Position numbers and translations under genes: made by a program. The notes below the pieces were generated by a model. It ran no database searches and had not been told where the DNA came from. It saw only the letters and a list, made by a program, of their open reading frames with translations. Positions 10,030-62,136 of a stretch of DNA of 64,000 nt are shown here, piece after piece; position 1 is the first letter of the stretch; the number at the start of each line of letters is the position of its first letter. The stretch comes from Chiloscyllium plagiosum (Eukaryota), in assembly GCF_004010195.1 (NCBI RefSeq), contig NC_057752.1:2121199-2185198 (forward strand), in the 5' to 3' direction.

Positions 10030-10139
<110 letters not shown>

Positions 10140-24760: not shown

Positions 24761-24852
24761 GTATGTAACAGAATTTGTAAACCTAGGCAATGTTTCAGCT
24801 CTTCGCACTTTCAGAGTATTGAGAGCTTTGAAAACTATTTCTGTAATTCCAG
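24761..24852 (+). CDS. scn8a: Mutually exclusive exon 5N (DI S3-S4), 92 nt
   Basis: CAG acceptor, CAG|GTAAGA donor; [30 protein letters not shown](G); Asn codon at 24780-24782. Confidence 0.93.
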
Positions 24853-24877
24853 GTAAGAAGTCTGTGATTGGTGTTAG

Positions 24878-25072
<195 letters not shown>

Positions 25073-35089: not shown

Positions 35090-35310
35090 AAAACAATGAC
35101 TGCAGGTGCTGGAAACCAGAGTCTAGATTAGAGTGGCACTGGTAAAGCACAGCAGGTCAGACAGCAGCTGAGGAGCAGGAAAATCAACGTTTAGGGCATA
35201 AGCCCTTCATCAGGAAGGGCCAATGAATGGCTTATGCCTGAAACATTGATTCTTCTGCTCCTCGGATGCTGCCTGACCTGTGCTTTTCCAGCACCACACT
35301 TTTCGACTCG
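35090..35310. mobile_element. Penelope-like termini in inverted pair, hammerhead cores mutated
   Basis: Minus copy about 35090-35215 followed by plus copy about 35226-35310. Confidence 0.7.
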
Positions 35311-40065: not shown

Positions 40066-42675
40066 CTACTCCCACCAGGTCTGACCTACACATGAGTCCA
40101 GACCAACAGCAATGCACTTGACTCTTAACTGCCCTCTGGACAATTGGGGATGGGCAAGAAATTATGCCTATATCTTGTAAATGTTTTTAAAAAATGCGTA
40201 ATTGTACCTGTTTAAAGTGACCTGGTCCTCCATTTGAGTGCAAAATCAATGATTGCACCACAGATAATCTTCACTTAAAGTGATTGAGCTCTGCCTTTCT
40301 GCTCTTAGAAAGGTAGTTATAGCTGTGATTCTGCAAAAGCTGTGTATCCTTGTCCCAAATAAACCTCTCAACAATTCTAGTGGAGCTATCAAATCTGTTT
40401 ACTTGGCCTGAGCTAATAAGCATTCTGACAATATGAAATAACCAAGTATAATTTAATTTGATGCCTCCTAAACAGTGGAGATAAGTTCAGTCCTAGCAAA
40501 AACAGAGTCAATTTGCCTTAGTGTTCATTGCTGTTACGCTTTCCATACTTATTTTTTGGGGACCTCTTATCGAATTTAGCTCATTCCCCAGCAGGAGGCT
40601 CATACTGTAATTTGAACAAATAGTGCCACTGATGACATTAACAGGACATTTAATGAGCACTAGGCTTTAAGACTGCTTTTTCTTTTAATACTCAGAATGG
40701 AATGGACTGAGCAGTTTCTACCATGGGAGATTGCCACTGAGAGCATAAAGATGGAAGTAGTTGTAAAAGTCAAGGCAGGCATTAGCAGTGTCTGGTTAAC
40801 TCATCCCAAAGCTATTGAGGCTTGTTGTGTCACACTCACGTTTGGCATTCTCTGGATTTAATGCATGCAGTTGAATGGAAATTTTAGAAAAATTACAAAA
40901 CTATTAGCAATTCAAAATTAACTTAGTAGGTCAGGCTTGTGAGATTCTGAGCTGTCTGAGTTTGAAGCAACTATCTGGTGACCGTATTAATAGTCATGTA
41001 ATAAATAAGGTTTTGTGGGCCAGTAAATAACTTCTCTAACCTTAACTCAGTTGCTAATTTCCGCTGCGTTATCTGATTTTAATTGGTATCAGTGCCCTTC
41101 AATTAAGGAAGAGAAAATTCACCATGCAGGGTTCTTACTGCCCAGTAGCTGCAAAGGGAAAATTATCTGTGGGGTGCCATCAGATGACGATAGAACTCAA
41201 CTTTTCTGCGGTGTGTCTGTGGTCCAAGGATCTGCTGCCACTCACTGACAAAGGCTTATGTGAAGAATGTTTGCTTTGGTGAACTACTGGAGAACTGCCT
41301 TCATTACAGTGAAGGGACTTTTTGTTTTTGAATAGCGGTAAAGTTCAGGTTTTATGTTGTTACTGTGAGTGAATTTGGACCTGGGACAATAAGAAGAAAG
41401 CTTGTAGGAATAATGACTGCATTGGTATTGAGAAAGACAATAAAGTCAAAAACTTTGCAATGGATAAAGAGGATTTTGAGATGAGAGATGAGCACATATC
41501 AAACTGTTAACAACTGGCTACTCAAATCACAAAGTCAATAGTAGGAAGGAAGGCTATGTGGCCTATCAGGTTAATGCTGGACTAGTGTGCCAATACTGTA
41601 GTCAAAGTGATGATGACAAAAGCCCATGTTATGTTGCTCCAAGTATCTTGACCACATTGTGCTGGAACAATATAGATTCTGAAAGGTCAGTAAGTAGTTG
41701 AATTACAAACCCTGCTCACCATTTAGTGAGAAACATGAAGCTCACTCAACAATGTGGGTAAATTAAAGTTAGTCTGAGATTGCATAATTAATCATTTCAG
41801 TTCAGCTTTGTATTTTGAATTATTGCATCAACCATCTTGAAAATGCATTAACCTTTGGAGCATTATAACTTATTAGAATTGTTCATTTGAGTTTTCAGTT
41901 ATCTGGTGTAGCAAATAGGTACTTTGGGACAACTGAACTGTAGTATGGGAAGGGTATTGTAGCTGTACAATAGAAGATCGAAGTGGACACAGTAGAATTT
42001 ATTCTGTGTATGATAATGGGTGAGTGCTACCTAATAAGATATGCAAGTTCACATTTTCTCGATTAATTTTTATTTTGTTTCTCAGTGAGAACTTTTAGTG
42101 CAGAGGAATGGAATGTGTTATTATTTCAGTTACCTTATTTTAGTATCAAGCATTTCAGGCCAAGTGCATCATGATTTGATATAAAACAAAACTGTTTCTT
42201 CAACAGTCTACTTCACCCCACACTTCGAAACTAATACTCCACTAGTGTGGCATTTTACCCATGTCCCAACCAAACCATCCTATCTTTTCTTAGCAAATTA
42301 CAGTGAAATCCAGGATAGACAGTATCCAAATCCCCTGCTCATAGGAGTGCCAATCCCAAGCTTGCTTAAAGAATCAGTCATATGTGCCCTGCTGCTAGCT
42401 ATTAATGATGCTGCAATTGTGTCTGATAAGTCAAAACTAAAAATAACCAGTTGTTAGTGACCGTTAAAAATTGTCTCCACCACAAGCTTTTTCAACAGCC
42501 CTTTTAGTTTTGAGCTCAAGCATTGTTATTAAATCCATTGACATGGTTTGCATTCAACACTGCTTGCTTTCCTGCATGAACTTTTTCTGGAATGTGATTT
42601 CTGTTCTTTTTGTGAACATGTGAGATGAGTGTTCACCCAGAGTATAGGTATAACAGTGTATGTTTATTTCTACAG

Positions 42676-42903
42676 GCCTGAAGACCATTGTGGGTGCTCT
42701 AATCCAGTCTGTGAAGAAGCTGTCTGATGTAATGATTTTGACTGTATTCTGCCTGAGTGTCTTTGCCCTTATTGGACTCCAGTTGTTTATGGGCAATTTG
42801 AGGCAGAAGTGTGTCATTTGGCCACCCAATCCAGCATATCTAAATGCCACAGATGAAAATGGAACAAGGATTTTTGACTTTAATGACTACATTATGAATG
42901 ACA
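42676..42903 (+). CDS. scn8a: Nav alpha subunit exon 6 (DI S4-S5 linker, S5, extracellular loop), 228 nt
   Basis: TACAG acceptor; (G)[75 protein letters not shown](T); donor ACA|GTAAGC. The short loop is Nav1.6-like. Confidence 0.93.
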
Positions 42904-43647: not shown

Positions 43648-45475
43648 TTCGCCGATGACTGGGGAGTCCAGAACCAGGAGATCACAGTCTAAGGATACGT
43701 GGTAGACCATTCAGGACTGAGATAAAGAGAAATGTCTTCACCCAGAGAGTGGGGAGCCTGTGGAATTCTCTATTACAGGAAAGGGTAGAGGCCAAAACCT
43801 TGAATATTTTCAAGAAGGAGTTCAATATAGTACTTAGGGCTGAAGGGATCAAAGGGTATGGGGAGAAAGTGGGAACAGGGGACTAAGTTAGATGGTCAGC
43901 CAGGATCATATTGAACGGTGGAGCAGGCCTGAAGGGTCGATTGGTTGCCTCCTACTCATATTTTGTATGTCCAGAATGTAGAAGCATGGCTAACCCCTGG
44001 TCTGCAGGCTTTGTGTAGCTGCAAAGCTCCTTGTGTCTGAAATGAACCACTGACCATGGATCCAGGGTAAGCTAGTTGTCTCAAGGAATGAGACAGTTTT
44101 GTTAGGAACATGGATTGCCTTGTGTGCCCTGATTTGATCTACAAAATGACAATGCCTCAGTCCATTCATAATTGGAGCAATGAATGAAATAGTTTGATTG
44201 TGCCATGATTTAGTTTAATATCAGCAATACTACATGAAGCATAGTTTTACATTTTCATTATTGAGAGGCGAACATTTGCATGCTGGAAATACGGCAGAAT
44301 GTGATCTGGCTAAGAAGAAACCAATTGATGTTGAAAGTCCCCAGCAAGATACCACTTATGAACGAGAAACACAGGTGATATTGTAAGTGAAAATAGGGAA
44401 ACGGCAATCTTGCTAAGTTTATAACTTTGCATAAGGATTCTTAAGGGGCTTGACAGGGTAAATGCTGAGAATATATTTCCTCTCATGGGGAAGTTTAGGA
44501 ACAGAGGACATAGCCTCAAAATAAAAGGGCACCAATTTAAGATTAAGATGAGGAGGAATTTCTTCTCTCAGAGGGTTCAGAGTCTTTGGAACTCCGTGCC
44601 ACAGACAGCTGTAGTTCTGCTGGTGGGACAGAGTCCTTGTGAATACTAAAGGCTAAGATAGACTCTTGCTCAGTAGGGGAATTGAGGGTTATGGGGAAAG
44701 GGCAGAAAAATGGACACGTCAGATCAGCCATGATCCTATTGAATGCGGAGCAGGCTCGAGGGGCTGAACGGCCTACTCTTATCCTATTCCTTATGGTATT
44801 TGCAGAAGAGGAAGAGGATTAAAATACCAGAAATTACAGGAAAACGAAAAGTAAATTGACAGCAGGCACTTAATAGATTTAATATCAGTCAGCAAAATGG
44901 AAATAGCGAAAGTAATGACACCGAAGATTGGCAAATTTCCAGAATCTGATAGGTTTTGACCAAAGGTTAATAAAGCAAATAAGTAAGGAAATTGTAGTTG
45001 CCTTAGTCATAATCTTCCAAAAGACACTTGATTAAGGAATTGTTCCTTGACATGGGAAATCCTGATTGTTTCAGTAAGGGTAGGAAAGAGTACGCTGAAA
45101 GTTATAAACCTACTAGTTTGATGTGTAGTATCTGGAAGGTACTAGAAACTGCAGTTTGAAATGGTGATTGTGTATTTGGCCAAATATTAACGGATGGGAG
45201 AAAACAATTGTTCATGGGTGAATTTTTTGAGGAGGTCACAAATGTGATGGATTATCTATTCATATTACTTACATGAACTTTCAGAAAACTTCATACAAGG
45301 TTACACTCAAGACATTGTTTTTAAAGATCAATGTACATGGAATTGGAGGTAACCAATTGTCATCAGTTTGGAGTTCGGTTGGTGTTAGGAGACAGAAAGT
45401 AGAGATAATGGATACACGCTACAATTGCCAGCATGTGACCAGTGGTGTCCCTCAGGAAAATGTCCCTGGGCCTTA
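43648..45475 (+). mobile_element. Cluster of CR1 LINE fragments (about 43648-43970, 44432-44797, 44800-45475)
   Basis: CR1 3' ends and an RT piece (VTSGVPQ..V.GP). Confidence 0.75.
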
Positions 45476-45509
45476 GGATTTTCTTTTGTTGTAGGCAATA
45501 ACTATAAGC

Positions 45510-46031
45510 CTTTTCAGAGAACACCTCTGGGACACCCGGACCAACCAACCCAACCACCCTGTAGCCCAACACTTTAACTCCCCCTCCCACTCCACTAAGG
45601 ACATGCAGGTCCTTGGACTCCTCCATCGCCAGACCATGGCAACATGACGGTTGGAGGAAGAGCCCCTCATCTTCTGCCTGGGAACCCTCCAACCACAAGG
45701 GATAAACTCAGATTTCTCCAGTTTCCTCATTTTCCCTCCCCCCACCTTGTCTCAGTCAAATCCCTCGAACTCAGCACCGCCTTCCTAACCTGCAATCTTC
45801 TTCCTGACCTCTCCAACCCCACCCCACTCCGGCCTATCACCCTCACCTTGACCTCCCTCCACCTATCGCAATTCCAACGCCCCTCCCCCAAGTCCCTCCT
45901 CCCTACCTTTTATCTTAGCCTGCTGGACACACTTTCCTCATTCCTGAAGAAGGGCTTATGCCCGAAACGTCGATTCTCCTGTTCCTTGGATGCTGCCTGA
46001 CCTGCTGCGTTTTTTCAGCAACACATTTTCA
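45510..46031 (+). mobile_element. Penelope-like element 3' part (GIY-YIG C-terminus, UTR, terminus with hammerhead)
   Basis: EHLWDTRTNQPNHPVAQHFNSPSH..LEEEPLIFCLGTLQPQGINSDF; imperfect direct repeat GCAATAAC(T)ATAAGC at 45495-45509 and 46032-46045. Confidence 0.85.
45944..45971 (+). ncRNA. Minimal type I hammerhead ribozyme motif, intact core, in a Penelope terminus
   Basis: CUGAAGA-A-GGGC-UUAU-GCCC-GAA-ACGU-C: core boxes, 4-bp stem II, palindromic ACGU as stem III, GUC triplet. Confidence 0.7.
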
Positions 46032-46802
46032 GCAATAACATAAGCAACACTGTAGGTGTACCTGCACCAAATGGACTGCAGCGATTCAAGAAGATAGCTC
46101 ACTATTACCTTATCATGGGCAGTAAGTACCAGTCTTACCAGTTGCACTCAAATCTTTGAATGGATATTAAAAATAATGAAGAAATCGAGAGCTGCATATT
46201 CAAGTTTGCTGATAACGGAATTTGGATGGTACAGAAGTAAACGGTGTAGTGAACACAGGAAGTTTCAGAAGGACATTGATAGATTGAGTGGTTGAAACTG
46301 TGGCAGATGACATTTGTGAGGACGTTTGCAGTCTGTACAGTCATATATTCAAGTCTCAATTTCCCCATTACCACTCTGGATCGGAGGACAATCTAGCAGG
46401 TTTCTTGACCCTCTGTGGTCCATGTGCTGTACATAGATCCACAATGCCCTGAGGGAGGGAATTCCAGGAATTGGACCCAGCGATACTGAAGGAATGGCAA
46501 TATATTTCCAAGTCAGGATGGTGAGTGGCTTGGAGGGAAACTTGCAGGTGATGGTGCTCCCATGCTTTTAAATGGTTCATAGAATTATAGCCTTTATCTT
46601 GGCCTTGACACACAAGGGGGCAGAAGTTCTTCTACGGTTGTAAAGAGTTCTTGTTAGGTCCCATCTGGAGTACTGTGTTCAGTTCTGTACCACACCGCAG
46701 GAAGAATATATTGGGTTTGAGAGGGGTGCAGCTGAGATACACAAGAATGACAACTGGGACTGAAAAAGTATTTCTACATCCTCAGAAGGATACATCAGTC
46801 AG

Positions 46803-46970
46803 TACCTCTACCAATGTCATCTACTGCATCCGTTGCACCCAATATGGTCTCCTTTACATCAGGAAGACAGGACGCCTTCTTGCAGATCATTTCAGAGAAT
46901 ATCTCTGGGACACCCACACCCACCAACCCCACCGCCCCGTGGCTGAACACTTCAACTTCCCCTCCCACTT
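46803..46970 (+). mobile_element. Penelope GIY-YIG endonuclease fragment
   Basis: TSTNVIYCIRCTQYGLLYIRKTGRLLADHFREYL (VIY...YIG-type motif). Confidence 0.8.
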
Positions 46971-47780
46971 GGGCCAGCATTTATTGCCCCATCCCTAATT
47001 GTCCCTGATAAGGTGGTGCTGAGCTGCATTCTTGAACTGCTGGAGTTCATGTACTACAGGCAGACACATGATTCCACTAGGGAGGGAATTCCAGGATTTT
47101 GACTCAGTGACACTGAATGAAAGGTCATATATATCCAAGTAAGTGGCTTGGAGTGGAACTTGCAGGTGGTGGTGTTCCGATGTATCTGTTGCCCTTGTCT
47201 TTCTAGATGGAAGTAGTTGTGAGTTTGGCAGGTGCTGTCTCAGGATCTTTGGTGAATTTCTGCAGAGCATCATGTAGATGGTACACATTGCTACTACTGA
47301 GCATCAGTGATGGAGGCAGTGAATGTATGTGGCTGTGCTGCCAATCAAGTGAGTTGCTTTGAACTGGATGGTGTCAAGTGTCTTGAAAGTGTTGAGTGTT
47401 GTTGGAGTTGTATTCCACCACATTCCTGATTCCTGATGAAGGGCTTATGCCTGAACCATCGATTCTCCTACTTCTCTGATGCTGCCTGATCTGTGCTTTT
47501 CCAGCACCACACTCTTGACAGTATTCCACCACACTCCTGACTTGTGCATTGTAGATGATGAACAGACTTTGAGGAGTCAGGAGGTGAGTTACTCACCATA
47601 GGATTCCTAGCATCTGACCTGCTCTTGTATTTATATGGCTAGTCTAGGTCAGTTTCTGGTCAATGGTAGCCCTCAGGATGTTGATAAAGGAGGATTCAAT
47701 GATACGTTAAATGTCAAGAAGCAATGGTTAAGTTCTCTCTTGTTAGAGACAGTCATTGCCTGACATTCATATGTCACATG
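46970..47780 (-). mobile_element. L2/CR1-clade LINE fragment (second family) interrupted by a Penelope terminus at 47430-47520
   Basis: Reverse complement of 32200-32985; insert flanked by GTATTCCACCACAYTCCTGA at 47410-47429 and 47521-47540. Confidence 0.75.
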
Positions 47781-49108: not shown

Positions 49109-49325
49109 TTAAAAGTCACACAACACCAGATAATAGTCCAACAGGTTTAATTGGAAGCACGAGCTTTTGGAGCGCTGCTGCTTCATCAGGTGGTTCCACA
49201 ACCACCTGATGAAGGAGCAGCGCTCCAAAAGTTAGTGCTTCCAATTAAACCTGTTGGACTATTATCTGGTGTTGTGTGACTTTTGATTTTGTTCACCCGA
49301 GTCCAACACCAGCATCTCCAAATCA
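49109..49325. mobile_element. Penelope-like insertion forming an 85-bp hairpin with hammerhead-like cores
   Basis: Arms 49111-49195 and 49200-49284 (3 mismatches), loop CCAC; direct repeat TGTATTTTAAAAG at 49096-49108 and 49326-49338. Confidence 0.8.
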
Positions 49326-50977: not shown

Positions 50978-51041
50978 CAAATTTCTACTGGGTGGCAGGA
51001 ATGGGTGATCCATTGCTTTGTGGAAATAGCACAGATGCTGG
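50978..51041 (+). CDS. scn8a: Nav alpha subunit exon 7 (DI extracellular loop), 64 nt
   Basis: TTGCAG acceptor; (T)NFYWVAGMGDPLLCGNSTDA(G); donor GG|GTAAGT; phases match exons 6 and 8. Confidence 0.92.
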
Positions 51042-51409
51042 GTAAGTTTTATCTTCTAATTGTTGAATTCCACCCTGTTTGTTAATTATGGTATTTGTAA
51101 AAGATTCTTCCAATTGAATTTGTCTGTCTGATGTGGGACTTAGTCATAAAGACCAGAAGCTTCCACAATTGTCTGTGCTGATCTCAGTTGGGCAACTGTT
51201 GAGGATCTGCAATTGTTAAACTACAGAGAGAATAAATCAACCAAGACCCCTTTCTCCATTTGTTACTCAGTGGTTTCCATTGCAGAGAATGCGGAACCCT
51301 GTTATCATGCTCTCCCAGTCTCCTATTTAAAGAGTAGCCTCTTGGATCAAGTAATGTTGATTGCTTAAGTCTGTGATGCTGTGACTGCAGGGAGGGAGGA
51401 AAGGAAACA

Positions 51410-51600
51410 GTGTCAATGCAGTCCCAGCTGTCTGAAGGAAAGCCGAGCAGTGTGGAAAGAAGGTCAATGAACTTCCCCACTCTACCAGCACAAACAACTC
51501 CCGACAGGACAGAAAGTCTGAAGATGAGAAGTGGGCTGCCTGACATTCCGCTCCTTATCCTTTATGAGGAGAGGGTCCTGACTCTGACTGTTCCGAGTAG
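51410..51600 (+). mobile_element. Putative PIF/Harbinger Myb/SANT-like gene remnant
   Basis: VNAVPAV*RKAEQCGKKVNEL then, after a frameshift, LKMRSGLPDIPLLILYEERVLTL; resembles R..EQC.KK..DL...KTGGG.P....LT..EERV. Confidence 0.45.
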
Positions 51601-51780
51601 CTTACTGACCCTGTCCAAGCTCCTGGACTGGGTATGGAGGCTGTCCCTGACGGAAGGCTAGCTCCCTTGAGTGATTGAGGTTCGGAGGCTGTCCCTAAGT
51701 GAAAGCTATCTCCCTTTATGTGACTGAGGTCGGCTGAAAACCAGGGCAAGCTTCCTGCGACTGTGTCTGAACGAAATGGC

Positions 51781-52912
51781 AAGGCAACACAGTGAGTCTG
51801 GTATCTCTGACTGAGGGACAAGGCAGCAGCACAGTGAGCCTGGTATCTCTGGCTGAGGGACAGGGCAGCAGCACAGTGAGCCTGGTATCTCTGACTGAGG
51901 GACAGGGCAGCAGCACAGTGAGCCTGGCACCTCTGGCTGAGGGACAGGGCAGCAGCACAGTGAGCCTGGTATCTCTGACTGAGGGACAGGGCAGTAGCAC
52001 AGTGAGCCTGGTATCTCTGACTAAGGGACAGGGCAGTACTACAGTGAGCCTGGTATCTCTGACTGAGGGACAGGGCAGCAGCACAGTGAGCCTGGTATCT
52101 CTGACTGAGGGACAGGGCAGCAGCACAGTGAGCCTGGTATCTCTGACTGAGGGACAGACCAGCAGCACAGTGAGCCTGGTATCTCTGGCTGAGGGACAGG
52201 ACAGCAGCACAGTGAGCCTGGTATCTCTGGCTGAGGGACAGTGCAGCAGCACAGTGAGCCTGGTATCTCTGACTGAGGGACTGGGCAGCAGCACAGTGAG
52301 CCTGGTATCTCTGGCTGAGGGACAGGGCAGCAGCACAGTGAGCCTGGTATCTCTGACTGAGGGTCAAGGCAACAGCACAGTGAGCCTGGTATCTCTGACT
52401 GAGGGACAGGGCAGCAGGACAGTGAGCCTGGTATCTCTGACTGAGGGACAAGGCAGCAGCACAGTGAGCCTGGTATCTCTGACTGAGGGACAGGGCAGCA
52501 CTACAGTGAACCTGGTATCTCTGACTAAGGGACAAGGCAGCAGCACAGTGAGGCTGGTATCTCTGGCTGAGGGACAGGGCAGCAGCACAGTGAGCCTGGT
52601 ATCTCTGACTGAGGGACAGGGCAGCAGCACAGTGAGCCCTGGTATCTCTGGCTGAGGGACAGGGCAGCTGCACAGTGAGCCCTGTATCTCTGACTGAGGG
52701 ACAAGGCAGCAGCACAGTGAGCCTGGTATCTCTGACTGAGGGACATGGCAGCAGCACAGTGAGTCTGGTATCTCTGGCTCAGGGACAATGCAGCAGCACA
52801 GTGAGCCTGGTATCTCTGACTGATGGACAAGGCAGCAGCACAGTGAGCCTGGTATCTCTGACTGAGGGACAAGGTAGCAGCGCAGGGAGCCTGGTATCTC
52901 TGACTGAGGAAC
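51781..52912. repeat. 42-bp minisatellite, about 27 copies
   Basis: Unit CACAGTGAGCCTGGTATCTCTGACTGAGGGACAGGGCAGCAG; few substitutions; a 1-nt insertion near 52638. Confidence 0.95.
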
Positions 52913-53589
52913 AAGTCATGGCAGGGATGTTGTGTTTATCACGGTTGTCTCGGAGTAAGGAATCACTGGGAGAGTGCATGAACAGCCTGCAGATCCAGCC
53001 CGGTCCAGGCCACGAGCTGTGGGTCAGTGTCCTCACTGCAGCACTACAATGAGAGTTCCCAGGGCATCCCAAGGGGGGCATTGAAGGGCTGAAGAGTCCT
53101 GTAAGTGGATCGATGATGGGGGACCAGAAGTGTTCTTGGAGGCTGGCACATGTTGGATGTCACTGACTGTGGGCGTGAGGTGTATGTGTGCACGCACATG
53201 CGTTCCCCATAGTGCATGCCCTGAGATGTTGATGCCTCGTGTTTAACATGGAGATTGTTCAGAGCGGGCGGTGAGCTGAAGCCTCCAGGTGCTCCCTCTG
53301 GTTTCCTTGTTGTCTTTTCCCGATATCGAGTTTGTTTGGAGTCGAGATTGGTCTCGCTGGACGTGTCGCACAATTTTGCCACAATCTCACCCATAGCCCA
53401 CTGTTGCTCTTAAGATTTTGCCCTTAGAGACTGTTGTGACCCGTTGTTACATTTTTGTGCTGATGTTGTTGCTCTGCATTTATTTCACTCAGCCCTCCTG
53501 AGCCACTGATGGGCTCCCTTAATAGCATCACATGTACTTTCACATGTACATGTACTCATGCTTTCTGTGCATTCTACTGGTAGACTTTG

Positions 53590-60215: not shown

Positions 60216-61563
60216 CTAATTGACTCACTTAAATTGCCCCTCATGGAACTAATACCCTAACAAAAAGCCAAGATATTCAGGAGATTATACAGAAGGTAGA
60301 AAATTGAGAAGAAAGATGCTTTTTTCAGGGTTGGTTGGTGGAGGGAATAAAACTTGCATACTAACTTGATTTGCCCTTCTAAAATGCAACAGAATTGTTC
60401 ATTTTTTGGCACTTAGCAACTTATGAGTAACATCCATAGGCTAACTGTGTCTAAAATAGCAGTTCCGTTCCTGGCAGTTGTCCTGACTCCAATCTGCTCC
60501 TGCTGCACAATATCAACCTGCTGTTCCTCTCCTTACCTGGCTCAAGGCCAGCAGCAGAGTCTGTGTGCAAACAGACCTGGATAACTGGAAACAGTCAGAA
60601 AAGAACTACAGAGAAGTGAAAACACAGGAAAGACAGTTTCGCGATCCATTGGAGAAAATGGTGATTTAAACACACATAGCTGACAACGATTTACCTGCAA
60701 TTTGCAAGATTCTATAATTGGTCTATTCATTGGTCAGATTGACCAACAATGGCACAGGACAACTGAAGGGCAATATTAATTCAATAATCAGAGCAGAATC
60801 TTAGAGTGCAGGGAAACTGTGTGTGCTTTGTGTGTAATATATGATGAATAGGTTTCCGTATTGTAAGAACATAAGAAATAGGAGCAGGAGTAGACCTTTT
60901 GACCCCTCAAGCCTCTTATACTATAATGTATAGGAACAGAATTAGGCCATTTGGCCTACCAAGTCTGTTTTGCCATTTGGTCATGGCTGATATAATTGCT
61001 CTTCTGCAATTCAGTGCAATTATGGATGATCTGATTGTAAATTTAACTTCACTTTCCTGCCCTCCAGAATTATTGATTCCATTGTGAATCAAAAATCTGT
61101 CTATCTCCACCTTGATGTTTTGCGACATATGAAACATGACACAGACAAGCTTTTCCCAAAATGGTTGAAGAAAAAGCTATTTAGCCCAAAGGGTCTGTTC
61201 CTATCCCATCTCGGGTAAATGTACCATAACGCGGGTCTATTTAATTTTCAGAGGAAAAATTTCAGTTTAACTATTTCCTGATTCCAAAGGCATTTGAGAA
61301 AAACTGCAGGATATTCATCTACCAACACGCTTCCACTATTCATAGTTGACACCCTTACACAGAATTCCAGTTGCATGGAGCATTTGAGAGCCTCGGTCTT
61401 TACATACCCCTTATAACCTCCAGTTCTATTGCCACCCAAATATCTGTCCCACCACTTCTCGGAGGAAGTGAGACCATAAGACATAAGAACAGAAGTAGAC
61501 CATTCAGCCCATTGAGTCTGCTCCGCCATTCAATGAGATCGTGGCTGATCTGATAATCCTCAA

Positions 61564-62136
61564 AGCTGAAAATGTGTTGCTGGAAAAGCGCAGCAGGTCA
61601 GGCAGCATCCAAGGAGCAGGAGAATCGACGTTTCGGGCATGAGCCCTTCTTCAGGAATGAGGAAAGTGTCTTCCATCTGGGTTGTACGGTATTGGAACTG
61701 GTCCTCTTGGAAGCAGATGCGGCGGAAACGAAGGAATTGGGAATATGGGATGGCATTTTTACAGGAGGCAGGGTGGGAGGAGATGTAGTCTACGTAGCGG
61801 TCGGTTTATAGTAAATGTCCGTGTTGATTCGGTCGCCCGAGATAGAAATGGAGAGGTCTAGGAAGGGGAGGGAGGAGTCTGAGATGGTCCAGGTAAATTT
61901 GAGGTCGGGGTGGAAGGTGTTGGTAAAGTGGATGAACTGTTCAACCTCCTCGTGGGAGCACGAGGCAGCGCCGATACAGTCATCGATGTAGTGGAAGAAA
62001 AGATGGGGGGTGGTGCCAGTGTAGCTGTGGAAGATGGACTGTTCCACATATCCTATGAAGAAGCAGGCATAGCTGGGGCCCATGCGGGTGCCCATGGCTA
62101 CTCTGATCTCCAGCATCTGTAGTCCTCACTTCCTCC
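61564..62136 (-). mobile_element. Rearranged Penelope-like element (RT fragment and terminus) inserted in a CR1 3' end spanning 61474-62560
   Basis: MGTRMGPSYAC..YIDD..LPFLDL..YYKPT; direct repeat CTGATAATCCTCAA at 61550-61563 and 62137-62150. Confidence 0.88.
61627..61654 (-). ncRNA. Minimal type I hammerhead ribozyme motif, intact core, in a Penelope terminus
   Basis: Minus strand reads CUGAAGA-A-GGGC-UCAU-GCCC-GAA-ACGU-C. Confidence 0.7.

What the first reader, a model, noticed from the sequence alone, without database searches (positions are those of the whole stretch)
45942..45973. Intact dimer-type hammerhead ribozyme on the sense strand of the channel pre-mRNA
Seen: UC-CUGAAGA-A-GGGC(UUAU)GCCC-GAA-ACGU-C-GA in intron 6, directly after a GIY-YIG remnant. 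Stem III is the loopless palindrome ACGU, so it can only form between two copies; stem I is only about 2 bp. Known: Penelope-like termini carry minimal hammerheads that cleave as dimers. A mutated sense copy lies at 47433 (GAAC). Inference: the nascent transcript could be cut after 45971, though probably weakly.
Basis: partly seen in the sequence, partly recalled or inferred. Interest (0 to 1): 0.7.

Follow-up and report, generated by a model that had tools for sequence, protein, structure and literature searches.

The report
Shark retrotransposon's leftover hammerhead ribozyme
The small hammerhead RNA motif is real, but it is the standard tail-end signature of a very common shark jumping gene that sits in a sodium-channel intron, is missing from the same spot in a related species, has no intact partner copy in that intron, and so likely does not cut the channel's RNA.

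Summary
Observation confirmed; inference of host-RNA cutting not supported. 45942-45973 matches the published minimal hammerhead (min-HHR) of Penelope-like elements base for base. It lies in the 3' pseudo-LTR of a 522-bp, 5'-truncated Penelope-like insertion (45510-46031, ~15-bp target-site duplication, broken GIY-YIG end, Neptune-type relatives) in the intron after coding exon 6 of a bamboo-shark Scn8a-like gene. The family is very abundant (81,072 and 99,667 contigs laid in two runs), and one contig from a related organism shows the empty site, so the insertion is lineage-restricted. The only other intact motif in 64 kb is on the antisense strand; the 47433 copy cannot supply the missing half. 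The active dimer is predicted to be 5-8 kcal/mol less stable than two free monomers. Published relatives cleave weakly as dimers or need the element's own protein (PMC4209133, PMC11167929). One RNA run shows no end pile-up at the cut site (weak test). The scan noted the same kind on other shark DNA before. New member of a known kind; low interest.

The parts
45942..45973 (+). Minimal type I hammerhead motif (2-bp stem I, core, extra A, 4-bp stem II, ACGU palindrome in place of helix III; predicted scissile bond 45971/45972)
   Evidence: matches the consensus in PMC4209133 Fig. S3
45510..46031 (+). 5'-truncated Penelope-like retroelement insertion (522 bp) that carries the motif in its 3' pseudo-LTR
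   Evidence: depth rises about 1e5-fold over flanks across this stretch; X19 record 9 skips 536 nt = element plus one TSD copy
45495..45509 (+). Left target-site duplication (15 nt; one extra base against the right copy)
   Evidence: read by eye; the gapless script found the first 8 nt
46032..46045 (+). Right target-site duplication (14 nt)
45513..45719 (+). C-terminal remnant of the element's GIY-YIG endonuclease, with an in-frame stop
   Evidence: 89% to P0121; 41-47% to the C-terminal end of 3 RT+GIY-YIG relatives of 806-889 aa; translation
47430..47520 (+). Short decayed sense copy of the same family in the same intron, with its own 20-bp TSD; A15.1 and the palindrome are lost
61565..61669 (-). 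Second intact copy (96% over 105 nt), antisense to the host gene, at the 3' end of an RT-bearing, internally deleted element (about 61564-62136, 14-bp TSD)
35144..35302 (.). Head-to-head inverted pair of decayed copies in the previous intron
42675..42903 (+). Host coding exon upstream of the motif (Scn8a-like, residues 236-312)
50978..51042 (+). Host coding exon downstream of the motif, about 5.0 kb past the predicted cut

Best explanation
This is the minimal hammerhead motif in the 3' pseudo-LTR of a truncated Penelope-like retroelement copy in an Scn8a-like intron, and it is likely an inert passenger that does not cut the channel pre-mRNA. How the motif works in its element (established for the family, inferred here): two copies pair through their ACGU palindromes. 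Each catalytic core is then a hybrid of one copy's CUGANGA-stem II-GAAA half and the other copy's GUC-GA half, and cutting is slow and likely needs tandem copies and the element's own protein. At this locus the insertion is solitary (shown), its ORF is dead (shown), and no intact partner lies in the same intron (shown). It is intact most likely because it is young: about 4% from the family majority, where keeping every needed base by chance has a probability of roughly 0.3-0.4 (inferred). Older copies decay at the motif.
For: Matches the min-HHR consensus; near-identical architecture, including a 2-bp helix I with ACGU, is in the published alignment (Culex row). Sits 3' of a GIY-YIG remnant with a TSD. 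81,072 (X15) and 99,667 (X19) contigs laid; summed depth 1.3-1.5e7 over the motif against about 17-45 in the unique flank bins (not a copy number). X19 record 9 joins 45502 to 46039 without a break = empty site, while X15 record 1 runs on to 45513 = filled. 2 intact motifs in 64 kb, one per strand; 1 of 5 sense and 1 of 2 antisense family copies intact. Active dimer -13.3 kcal/mol against -18.7 for two monomer ensembles and -24.1 for an off-register inactive dimer at 37 C; same order at 15 and 25 C. Stem II is paired with probability only 0.03-0.2 in local context. Literature: a single min-HHR showed no cleavage and dimers low cleavage (PMC4209133); the Anolis PAc hammerhead cut only with the element's protein, and no RNA-seq reads began or ended at its site (PMC11167929); slow intronic ribozymes had no effect on splicing (Fong 2009 as cited in PMC10919898).
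Against: All conserved positions are intact, and none of the 40 best-supported difference rows falls in 45940-45975 (194 rows not shown), so the family itself was likely under selection for the fold. Nearest-neighbour energies omit the core's non-canonical pairs, Mg2+ and protein help, so they understate the active fold. In X20 one read direction gains 29% in depth across the cut site (875 to 1128) while the other gains 3%; this is part of a gradient along the whole element but is not excluded as a minor cut fraction. The gene extends beyond the window on both sides and may hold other intact sense copies. The empty site rests on one contig of one run. No read of this locus's own intron was seen, so it was not tested in a cell that expresses it.
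Confidence: 0.88

Rival explanations
1. Conditional, function-less cutting. When the autonomous element's protein is expressed, or when two nascent transcripts or sibling repeat RNAs meet, the motif would be chaperoned into the dimer and a small share of pre-mRNAs cut at 45971.
For: Motif intact. The PAc hammerhead is protein-assisted. Family RNA is present in both orientations in X20 (2,726 reads laid, 94% running on into other sequence), so partners exist in trans. The copy keeps about 60 nt of the 3' tail region, where PAc protein is proposed to bind its RNA (correspondence inferred).
Against: Only 4+2+2 bp hold the active dimer, and an inactive register is preferred by 11-18 kcal/mol. No end pile-up in X20 (table 6; threshold a fifth of depth, poly(A) library). 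Depth does not fall across the site. Polymerase needs only a few minutes for the 5.0 kb to the next exon (3.5-4.1 kb/min quoted for mammals; likely slower in a shark). Antisense copies in the same pre-mRNA would compete (-110 and -214 kcal/mol duplexes).
Confidence: 0.09
2. A domesticated intronic ribozyme that tunes Scn8a splicing or level, like the amniote RECK hammerhead or the CPEB3 ribozyme.
For: Sense orientation, intact core, 5 kb upstream of an exon in a neuronal gene; precedents exist.
Against: Site empty in a relative whose flanks are about 95-99% alike. No helix III, so no monomer activity. One intact copy on each strand. Intactness is expected by chance at this age.
Confidence: 0.02
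3. Chance resemblance to a hammerhead.
For: No Rfam hammerhead hit; single-strand folding is not unusual (z -0.2 to -1.3).
Against: 0 matches in 100 shuffles; every extra feature of the published consensus is met and the position in the pseudo-LTR is the expected one; a second, unrelated repeat family in the window shows the same layout.
Confidence: 0.01

Closest known systems
Minimal hammerheads (min-HHR) in the pseudo-LTRs of metazoan Penelope-like elements (Cervera and De la Pena 2014, PMC4209133; read: parts 1-2 of 4 of the text, supplement parts 1-2 of 3)
   Same: Core, extra base between 9 and 10.1, G10.1-C11.1, palindromic 15.2-16.2, no helix III, position 3' of the GIY-YIG ORF, thousands of solitary copies per genome.
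   Different: Helix I at the short end (2 bp; most listed members have 3-5) and helix II only 4 bp. No shark row in their Fig. S3 alignment or Table S1 (supplementary file 1 could not be searched).
Dimer-cleaving Penelope hammerheads of Lunse, Weinberg and Breaker 2016 (PMC5785218; not held; seen only as cited in PMC6765202 and PMC6466107 passages)
   Same: Short palindromic stem III that needs a second copy.
   Different: Those reviews say a tandem arrangement is needed; this copy is solitary. Whether that paper lists shark motifs could not be checked.
PAc (Anolis Poseidon) hammerhead (Frangieh et al. 2024, PMC11167929; read parts 1-2 of 4)
   Same: Vertebrate Penelope-like pseudo-LTR hammerhead; optional 30-40-nt tail at the 3' end of copies (seen here as ends at 46024-46033 and longer copies such as 13292); template uncut at the site.
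   Different: PAc is Penelope/Poseidon clade; the relatives here carry the Neptune/Nematis-type zinc-finger linker. Protein assistance was shown for PAc, not for this family.
Conserved amniote intronic hammerheads (RECK and others) and the CPEB3 ribozyme (passages of PMC6155905 and PMC10919898)
   Same: Self-cleaving motif on the sense strand of an intron.
   Different: Those are monomer-competent and conserved at the orthologous site; this one is neither.
Non-LTR retrozymes (bioRxiv 10.64898/2026.07.22.740005; read part 1 of 5 and passages)
   Same: Type I hammerheads related to Penelope pseudo-LTRs; one chondrichthyan genome was in their sample.
   Different: Retrozymes are tandem arrays of non-coding units; this is a dispersed truncated copy with coding remnant and TSD.

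Membership tests
min-HHR of metazoan Penelope-like elements | Core CUGANGA ... GAAA N ... NUH | tested here: met
   45944-45950 and 45964-45971
min-HHR of metazoan Penelope-like elements | One extra base between positions 9 and 10.1; G10.1-C11.1 closing pair | tested here: met
   A45951; G45952-C45963 (features)
min-HHR of metazoan Penelope-like elements | No helix III; palindromic 15.1-16.1 | tested here: met
   ACGU 45967-45970
min-HHR of metazoan Penelope-like elements | Short helix I within the published range | tested here: met
   2 bp, the short end of the range; 2-bp members (Culex, Drosophila virilis, Oikopleura) are in Fig. S3
min-HHR of metazoan Penelope-like elements | Lies in the pseudo-LTR 3' of the RT-EN ORF | tested here: met
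   about 220 nt past the GIY-YIG remnant; the sister copy at 61565-61669 follows an RT fragment
min-HHR of metazoan Penelope-like elements | Self-cleavage as a dimer | not testable with these tools
   needs a bench assay; RNA reads show no end pile-up, a weak test
Penelope-like element (EN+) | RT followed by C-terminal GIY-YIG endonuclease | tested here: met
   through relatives: remnant 89% to P0121, whose 78 longer relatives mostly carry RVT_1 (PF00078) and 67 of 79 proteins show the GIY-YIG core; Pfam GIY-YIG on P0121 E 0.0046, below its cut-off
Penelope-like element (EN+) | 5' truncation, TSD, optional 3' tail, inverted partial copies | tested here: met
   (table 7); features
Neptune clade | CX2-5CxxC zinc-finger linker before GIY-YIG | tested here: inconclusive
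   present in 64 of the 67 proteins with a recognisable core; P0121 keeps only the CxxC half; this copy lacks the region; Nematis shares the motif
Neptune clade | RT phylogeny | not tested
   no tree built; no named reference elements at hand
Canonical type I hammerheads (Rfam models) | Score against the curated covariance models | tested here: not met
   no hammerhead family among hits at E<=1 (window) or E<=10 (251 nt)
Domesticated intronic ribozyme | Conserved at the orthologous site | tested here: not met
   empty site in X19 record 9 (one contig)
Non-LTR retrozyme | Tandem units each with a hammerhead | tested here: not met
   solitary; nearest intact copy is 15.6 kb away on the other strand

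The most novel reading that the evidence does not exclude
The many intact sense-strand copies of this family in shark introns form a latent, protein-switched set of cut sites: when the autonomous element's protein is expressed it folds solitary motifs such as this one into active dimers with sibling RNAs and clips nascent host transcripts, Scn8a among them.
Probability: 0.05. Interest if true: 0.6.

Novelty: new member of a known kind. Interest (0 to 1): 0.12.

Why it matters
As it stands it matters little: one more copy of a described retroelement motif, in a lineage (sharks) that the founding paper's alignment did not list. If the novel case held, retroelement expression would directly cut host pre-mRNAs across a genome, a new route from transposon activity to gene dosage. 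The practical use of this locus is small but real: a filled and an empty allele exist in close relatives, which gives a natural control for any effect on Scn8a splicing.

Tried and rejected
Rfam scans: no hammerhead model hits; the mir-875 hit at 49165-49230 is an inverted pair of a second repeat family. Single-strand folding: no unusual stability. Whole-genome count and sense/antisense bias in introns: not possible, no genome held. Pfam on the remnants: 0 families for 3 of 3 pieces and for the read-through remnant; identity came from homologue searches instead. Heterodimer with the 47433 copy: rejected, since it has C at 15.1 and no palindrome, and the best cofold is not the hammerhead. Extending stem I to a third pair costs 2.8 kcal/mol. 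Sequencing runs: no RNA holder listed in the index; X21 had 0 reads laid (no test); X20 had no reads on the unique flanks, so expression of this intron was not seen (about 2 in 100 of the run read, tissue unknown). Lunse et al. 2016 not held. Searches for a printed description in sharks: 'shark, Penelope, hammerhead ribozyme' (1 paper, where 'shark' refers to the motif's shape), 'bamboo shark, Penelope, transposable elements' (2 listings, not read), 'shark, self-cleaving ribozyme, retrotransposon' (6 listings, not read). None is shown to describe this family, but subscription papers, Repbase/Dfam and bioRxiv supplements were out of reach. Earlier-findings look-ups by sequence and by place were blank.

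Full report
1. The observation. The motif is at the stated place. Numbered as a hammerhead: stem I 5' side U45942 C45943; C3-A9 at 45944-45950; one extra A; stem II of four G-C pairs with a 4-nt loop (45952-45963); G12 A13 A14; ACGU at 45967-45970; C17 at 45971; G1.1 A1.2. Stem I has two pairs; adding the next possible A-U across a U.U mismatch costs 2.8 kcal/mol. A generic core-plus-stem pattern matches twice in the window and never in 100 shuffles. Rfam has no hammerhead hit, which is expected because those models include helix III and a long helix I.

2. The host. The exon at 42675-42903 is 99% identical to a protein named sodium channel type 8 alpha-like of Chiloscyllium plagiosum (P0001). 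tblastn places coding exons at 10047, 14290, 24762/24956, 42675, 50978, 57189 and 63691 on the + strand; residues 1-131 are not in the window. The whole window therefore lies inside the gene, and the motif is in an 8.07-kb intron, 5.0 kb before the next exon.

3. The element. Upstream of the motif, 45513-45701 translates, with one stop, to a stretch 89% identical to the C-terminus of P0121, an uncharacterised Chiloscyllium punctatum protein. P0121 has 78 relatives of 630-2000 residues at E<=1e-20, most with an RVT_1 domain. 67 of the 79 proteins show the GIY-YIG core, and 64 of those 67 have the CX2-5CxxC linker that PMC8557442 gives for the Neptune and Nematis clades; no tree was built. A duplication of 14-15 nt flanks 45510-46031. 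This is a 5'-truncated Penelope-like insertion with a dead ORF, and the hammerhead sits where the family has it, in the 3' pseudo-LTR.

4. Abundance and age. Laying four runs on 45300-46300 at 85% likeness placed 81,072 contigs from X15 and 99,667 from X19. Summed depth was 1.3-1.5e7 over the motif against about 17-45 in the unique flank bins (the tool warns that this is no copy number; both runs overflowed its counts). X19 record 9 (organism D) covers 46039-46300 with record letters 151-418 and 45300-45502 with 419-621. It skips 536 nt, exactly the element plus one TSD copy: the empty site. X15 record 1 (organism C) runs on to 45513, four letters into the element: the filled site. Of the 40 difference rows shown (194 not shown), 22 lie in the element and in each the majority of X20 reads differ from the window, about 4% of 522 nt; none lies in the motif. 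With 24 needed positions (my assumption), a copy at 3.5-5% divergence stays intact with probability 0.29-0.43. Intactness is what youth predicts.

5. Partners. The window has seven copies of this family's 3' end: sense at 994, 13292, 35219, 45943 and 47432; antisense at 35184 and 61625. Only 45943 (+) and 61625 (-) are intact, and a family-independent descriptor finds no other intact motif on either strand. In a double hammerhead each core joins the enzyme half of one copy to the substrate half of the other (geometry from PMC4209133 Fig. 1 legend), so a cut at 45971 needs a second intact sense copy. The 47433 copy, the only other sense copy of this family in the intron, has C at 15.1 and no palindrome. 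Nine of 29 differences in the six other copies fall on the 6 CpG positions of 30, a mild excess in line with ordinary decay. Copies outside the window could not be counted.

6. Energetics. For two 46-nt strands the active dimer evaluates to -13.3 kcal/mol at 37 C, two monomer ensembles to -18.7, and the best dimer, an off-register pairing that buries G12-A14, to -24.1. The ranking is the same at 25 and 15 C. In 200-400 nt of context stem II is paired with probability 0.03-0.2 and stem I not at all. The model leaves out core non-canonical pairs, Mg2+ and proteins, so this shows a handicap, not impossibility.

7. RNA. X20 (poly(A) single-cell library, about 2 in 100 of the run read) laid 2,726 reads, 94% running on into other sequence, in both directions (700 and 875 over the motif), none on the unique flanks, and no place where many molecules begin or end (threshold one fifth of depth). 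One direction rises from 875 to 1128 across the site and the other from 700 to 720; the ratio of the two directions drifts along the whole element, so I do not read this as cleavage. X21 laid nothing. This is a weak test and does not cover this locus's own transcript.

8. Literature. PMC4209133 (text parts 1-2 of 4; supplement parts 1-2 of 3; file 1 not searchable) defines the min-HHR, reports thousands of mostly solitary copies per genome, no cleavage for a single motif and low cleavage for dimers and trimers. Its Fig. S3 consensus and several rows, including a Culex motif with 2-bp helix I and ACGU, match this one; no shark row. PMC11167929 (parts 1-2 of 4) found that the Anolis PAc hammerhead cut only with the element's protein, was not needed for insertion in vitro, and left no read ends at its site. 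PMC10919898 (passages) cites Fong et al. 2009 that slow intronic ribozymes do not affect splicing. Lunse et al. 2016 was not held and is known here only through passages of PMC6765202 and PMC6466107. A 2026 preprint reports retrozymes in one chondrichthyan and a mild depletion from Xenopus introns (supplements closed).

9. Mechanism and verdict. Shown: sequence, position, element structure, lack of an intact partner in the intron, empty site in one relative's contig. Established for the family: dimer geometry, low activity, protein help in one case. Inferred: that this copy does not cut Scn8a pre-mRNA to any extent that matters (0.88); that it cuts occasionally with protein or trans partners (0.09); domestication (0.02). 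Four earlier scan notes reached the same reading on other shark DNA; they are unchecked AI notes and not counted as support. New member of a known kind, interest 0.12. The one loose thread is that short copies begin just 5' of the core rather than at the cut site, which fits an uncut template and may mark the element's RNA 5' end.

Noticed in passing
window 45936-45949 (table 7); also 47430, about 988, 13292, 35214/35219, 49192/49203: 5' boundaries of short copies cluster at or within about 10 nt of core C3, not at the cleavage site, in two unrelated families. The reverse-transcribed template was therefore likely uncut at C17. The boundary may mark the RNA 5' end, an RT stall at the folded motif, or subfamilies with other upstream sequence.
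   Followed up: partly
window 49162-49233: Head-to-head inverted pair of a second min-HHR family (5-bp stem II, AGCU-type palindrome) in the same intron, with a 13-bp TSD; both arms have lost G12. It gives the spurious mir-875 Rfam hit.
   Followed up: partly
window 45929-46033 with 61565-61669 and 35144-35216: Opposite-strand copies in the same pre-mRNA could form long duplexes (-214 and -110 kcal/mol): possible ADAR substrates or back-splicing arms around exons 6-8.
   Followed up: partly
window 45730-45920: The pseudo-LTR has a long pyrimidine tract ending in TTAG at 45916-45919 on the sense strand, a possible cryptic splice acceptor 24 nt before the core. Not scored; no read evidence.
   Followed up: no
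window 45958-45960: An ATG lies in loop II and opens a short frame (seen in the 61560-61805 ORF); in PAc the ORF starts at stem II, so this could be the element's start codon.
   Followed up: no
window 45964-45976: The bases around the ACGU form a longer imperfect palindrome that is predicted to dimerise in an inactive register more stably than the active fold.
   Followed up: partly
window 24762-24854 and 24956-25048: Duplicated mutually exclusive exons (5N/5A type, N versus D; label recalled) of the Scn8a-like gene are both present.
   Followed up: no
window 46804-46968: A separate GIY-YIG fragment of a related Penelope-like element, without its 3' end, in the same intron.
   Followed up: no
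window 51555-52935: Tandem array with a period of about 42 bp that gives long repetitive open frames.
   Followed up: no
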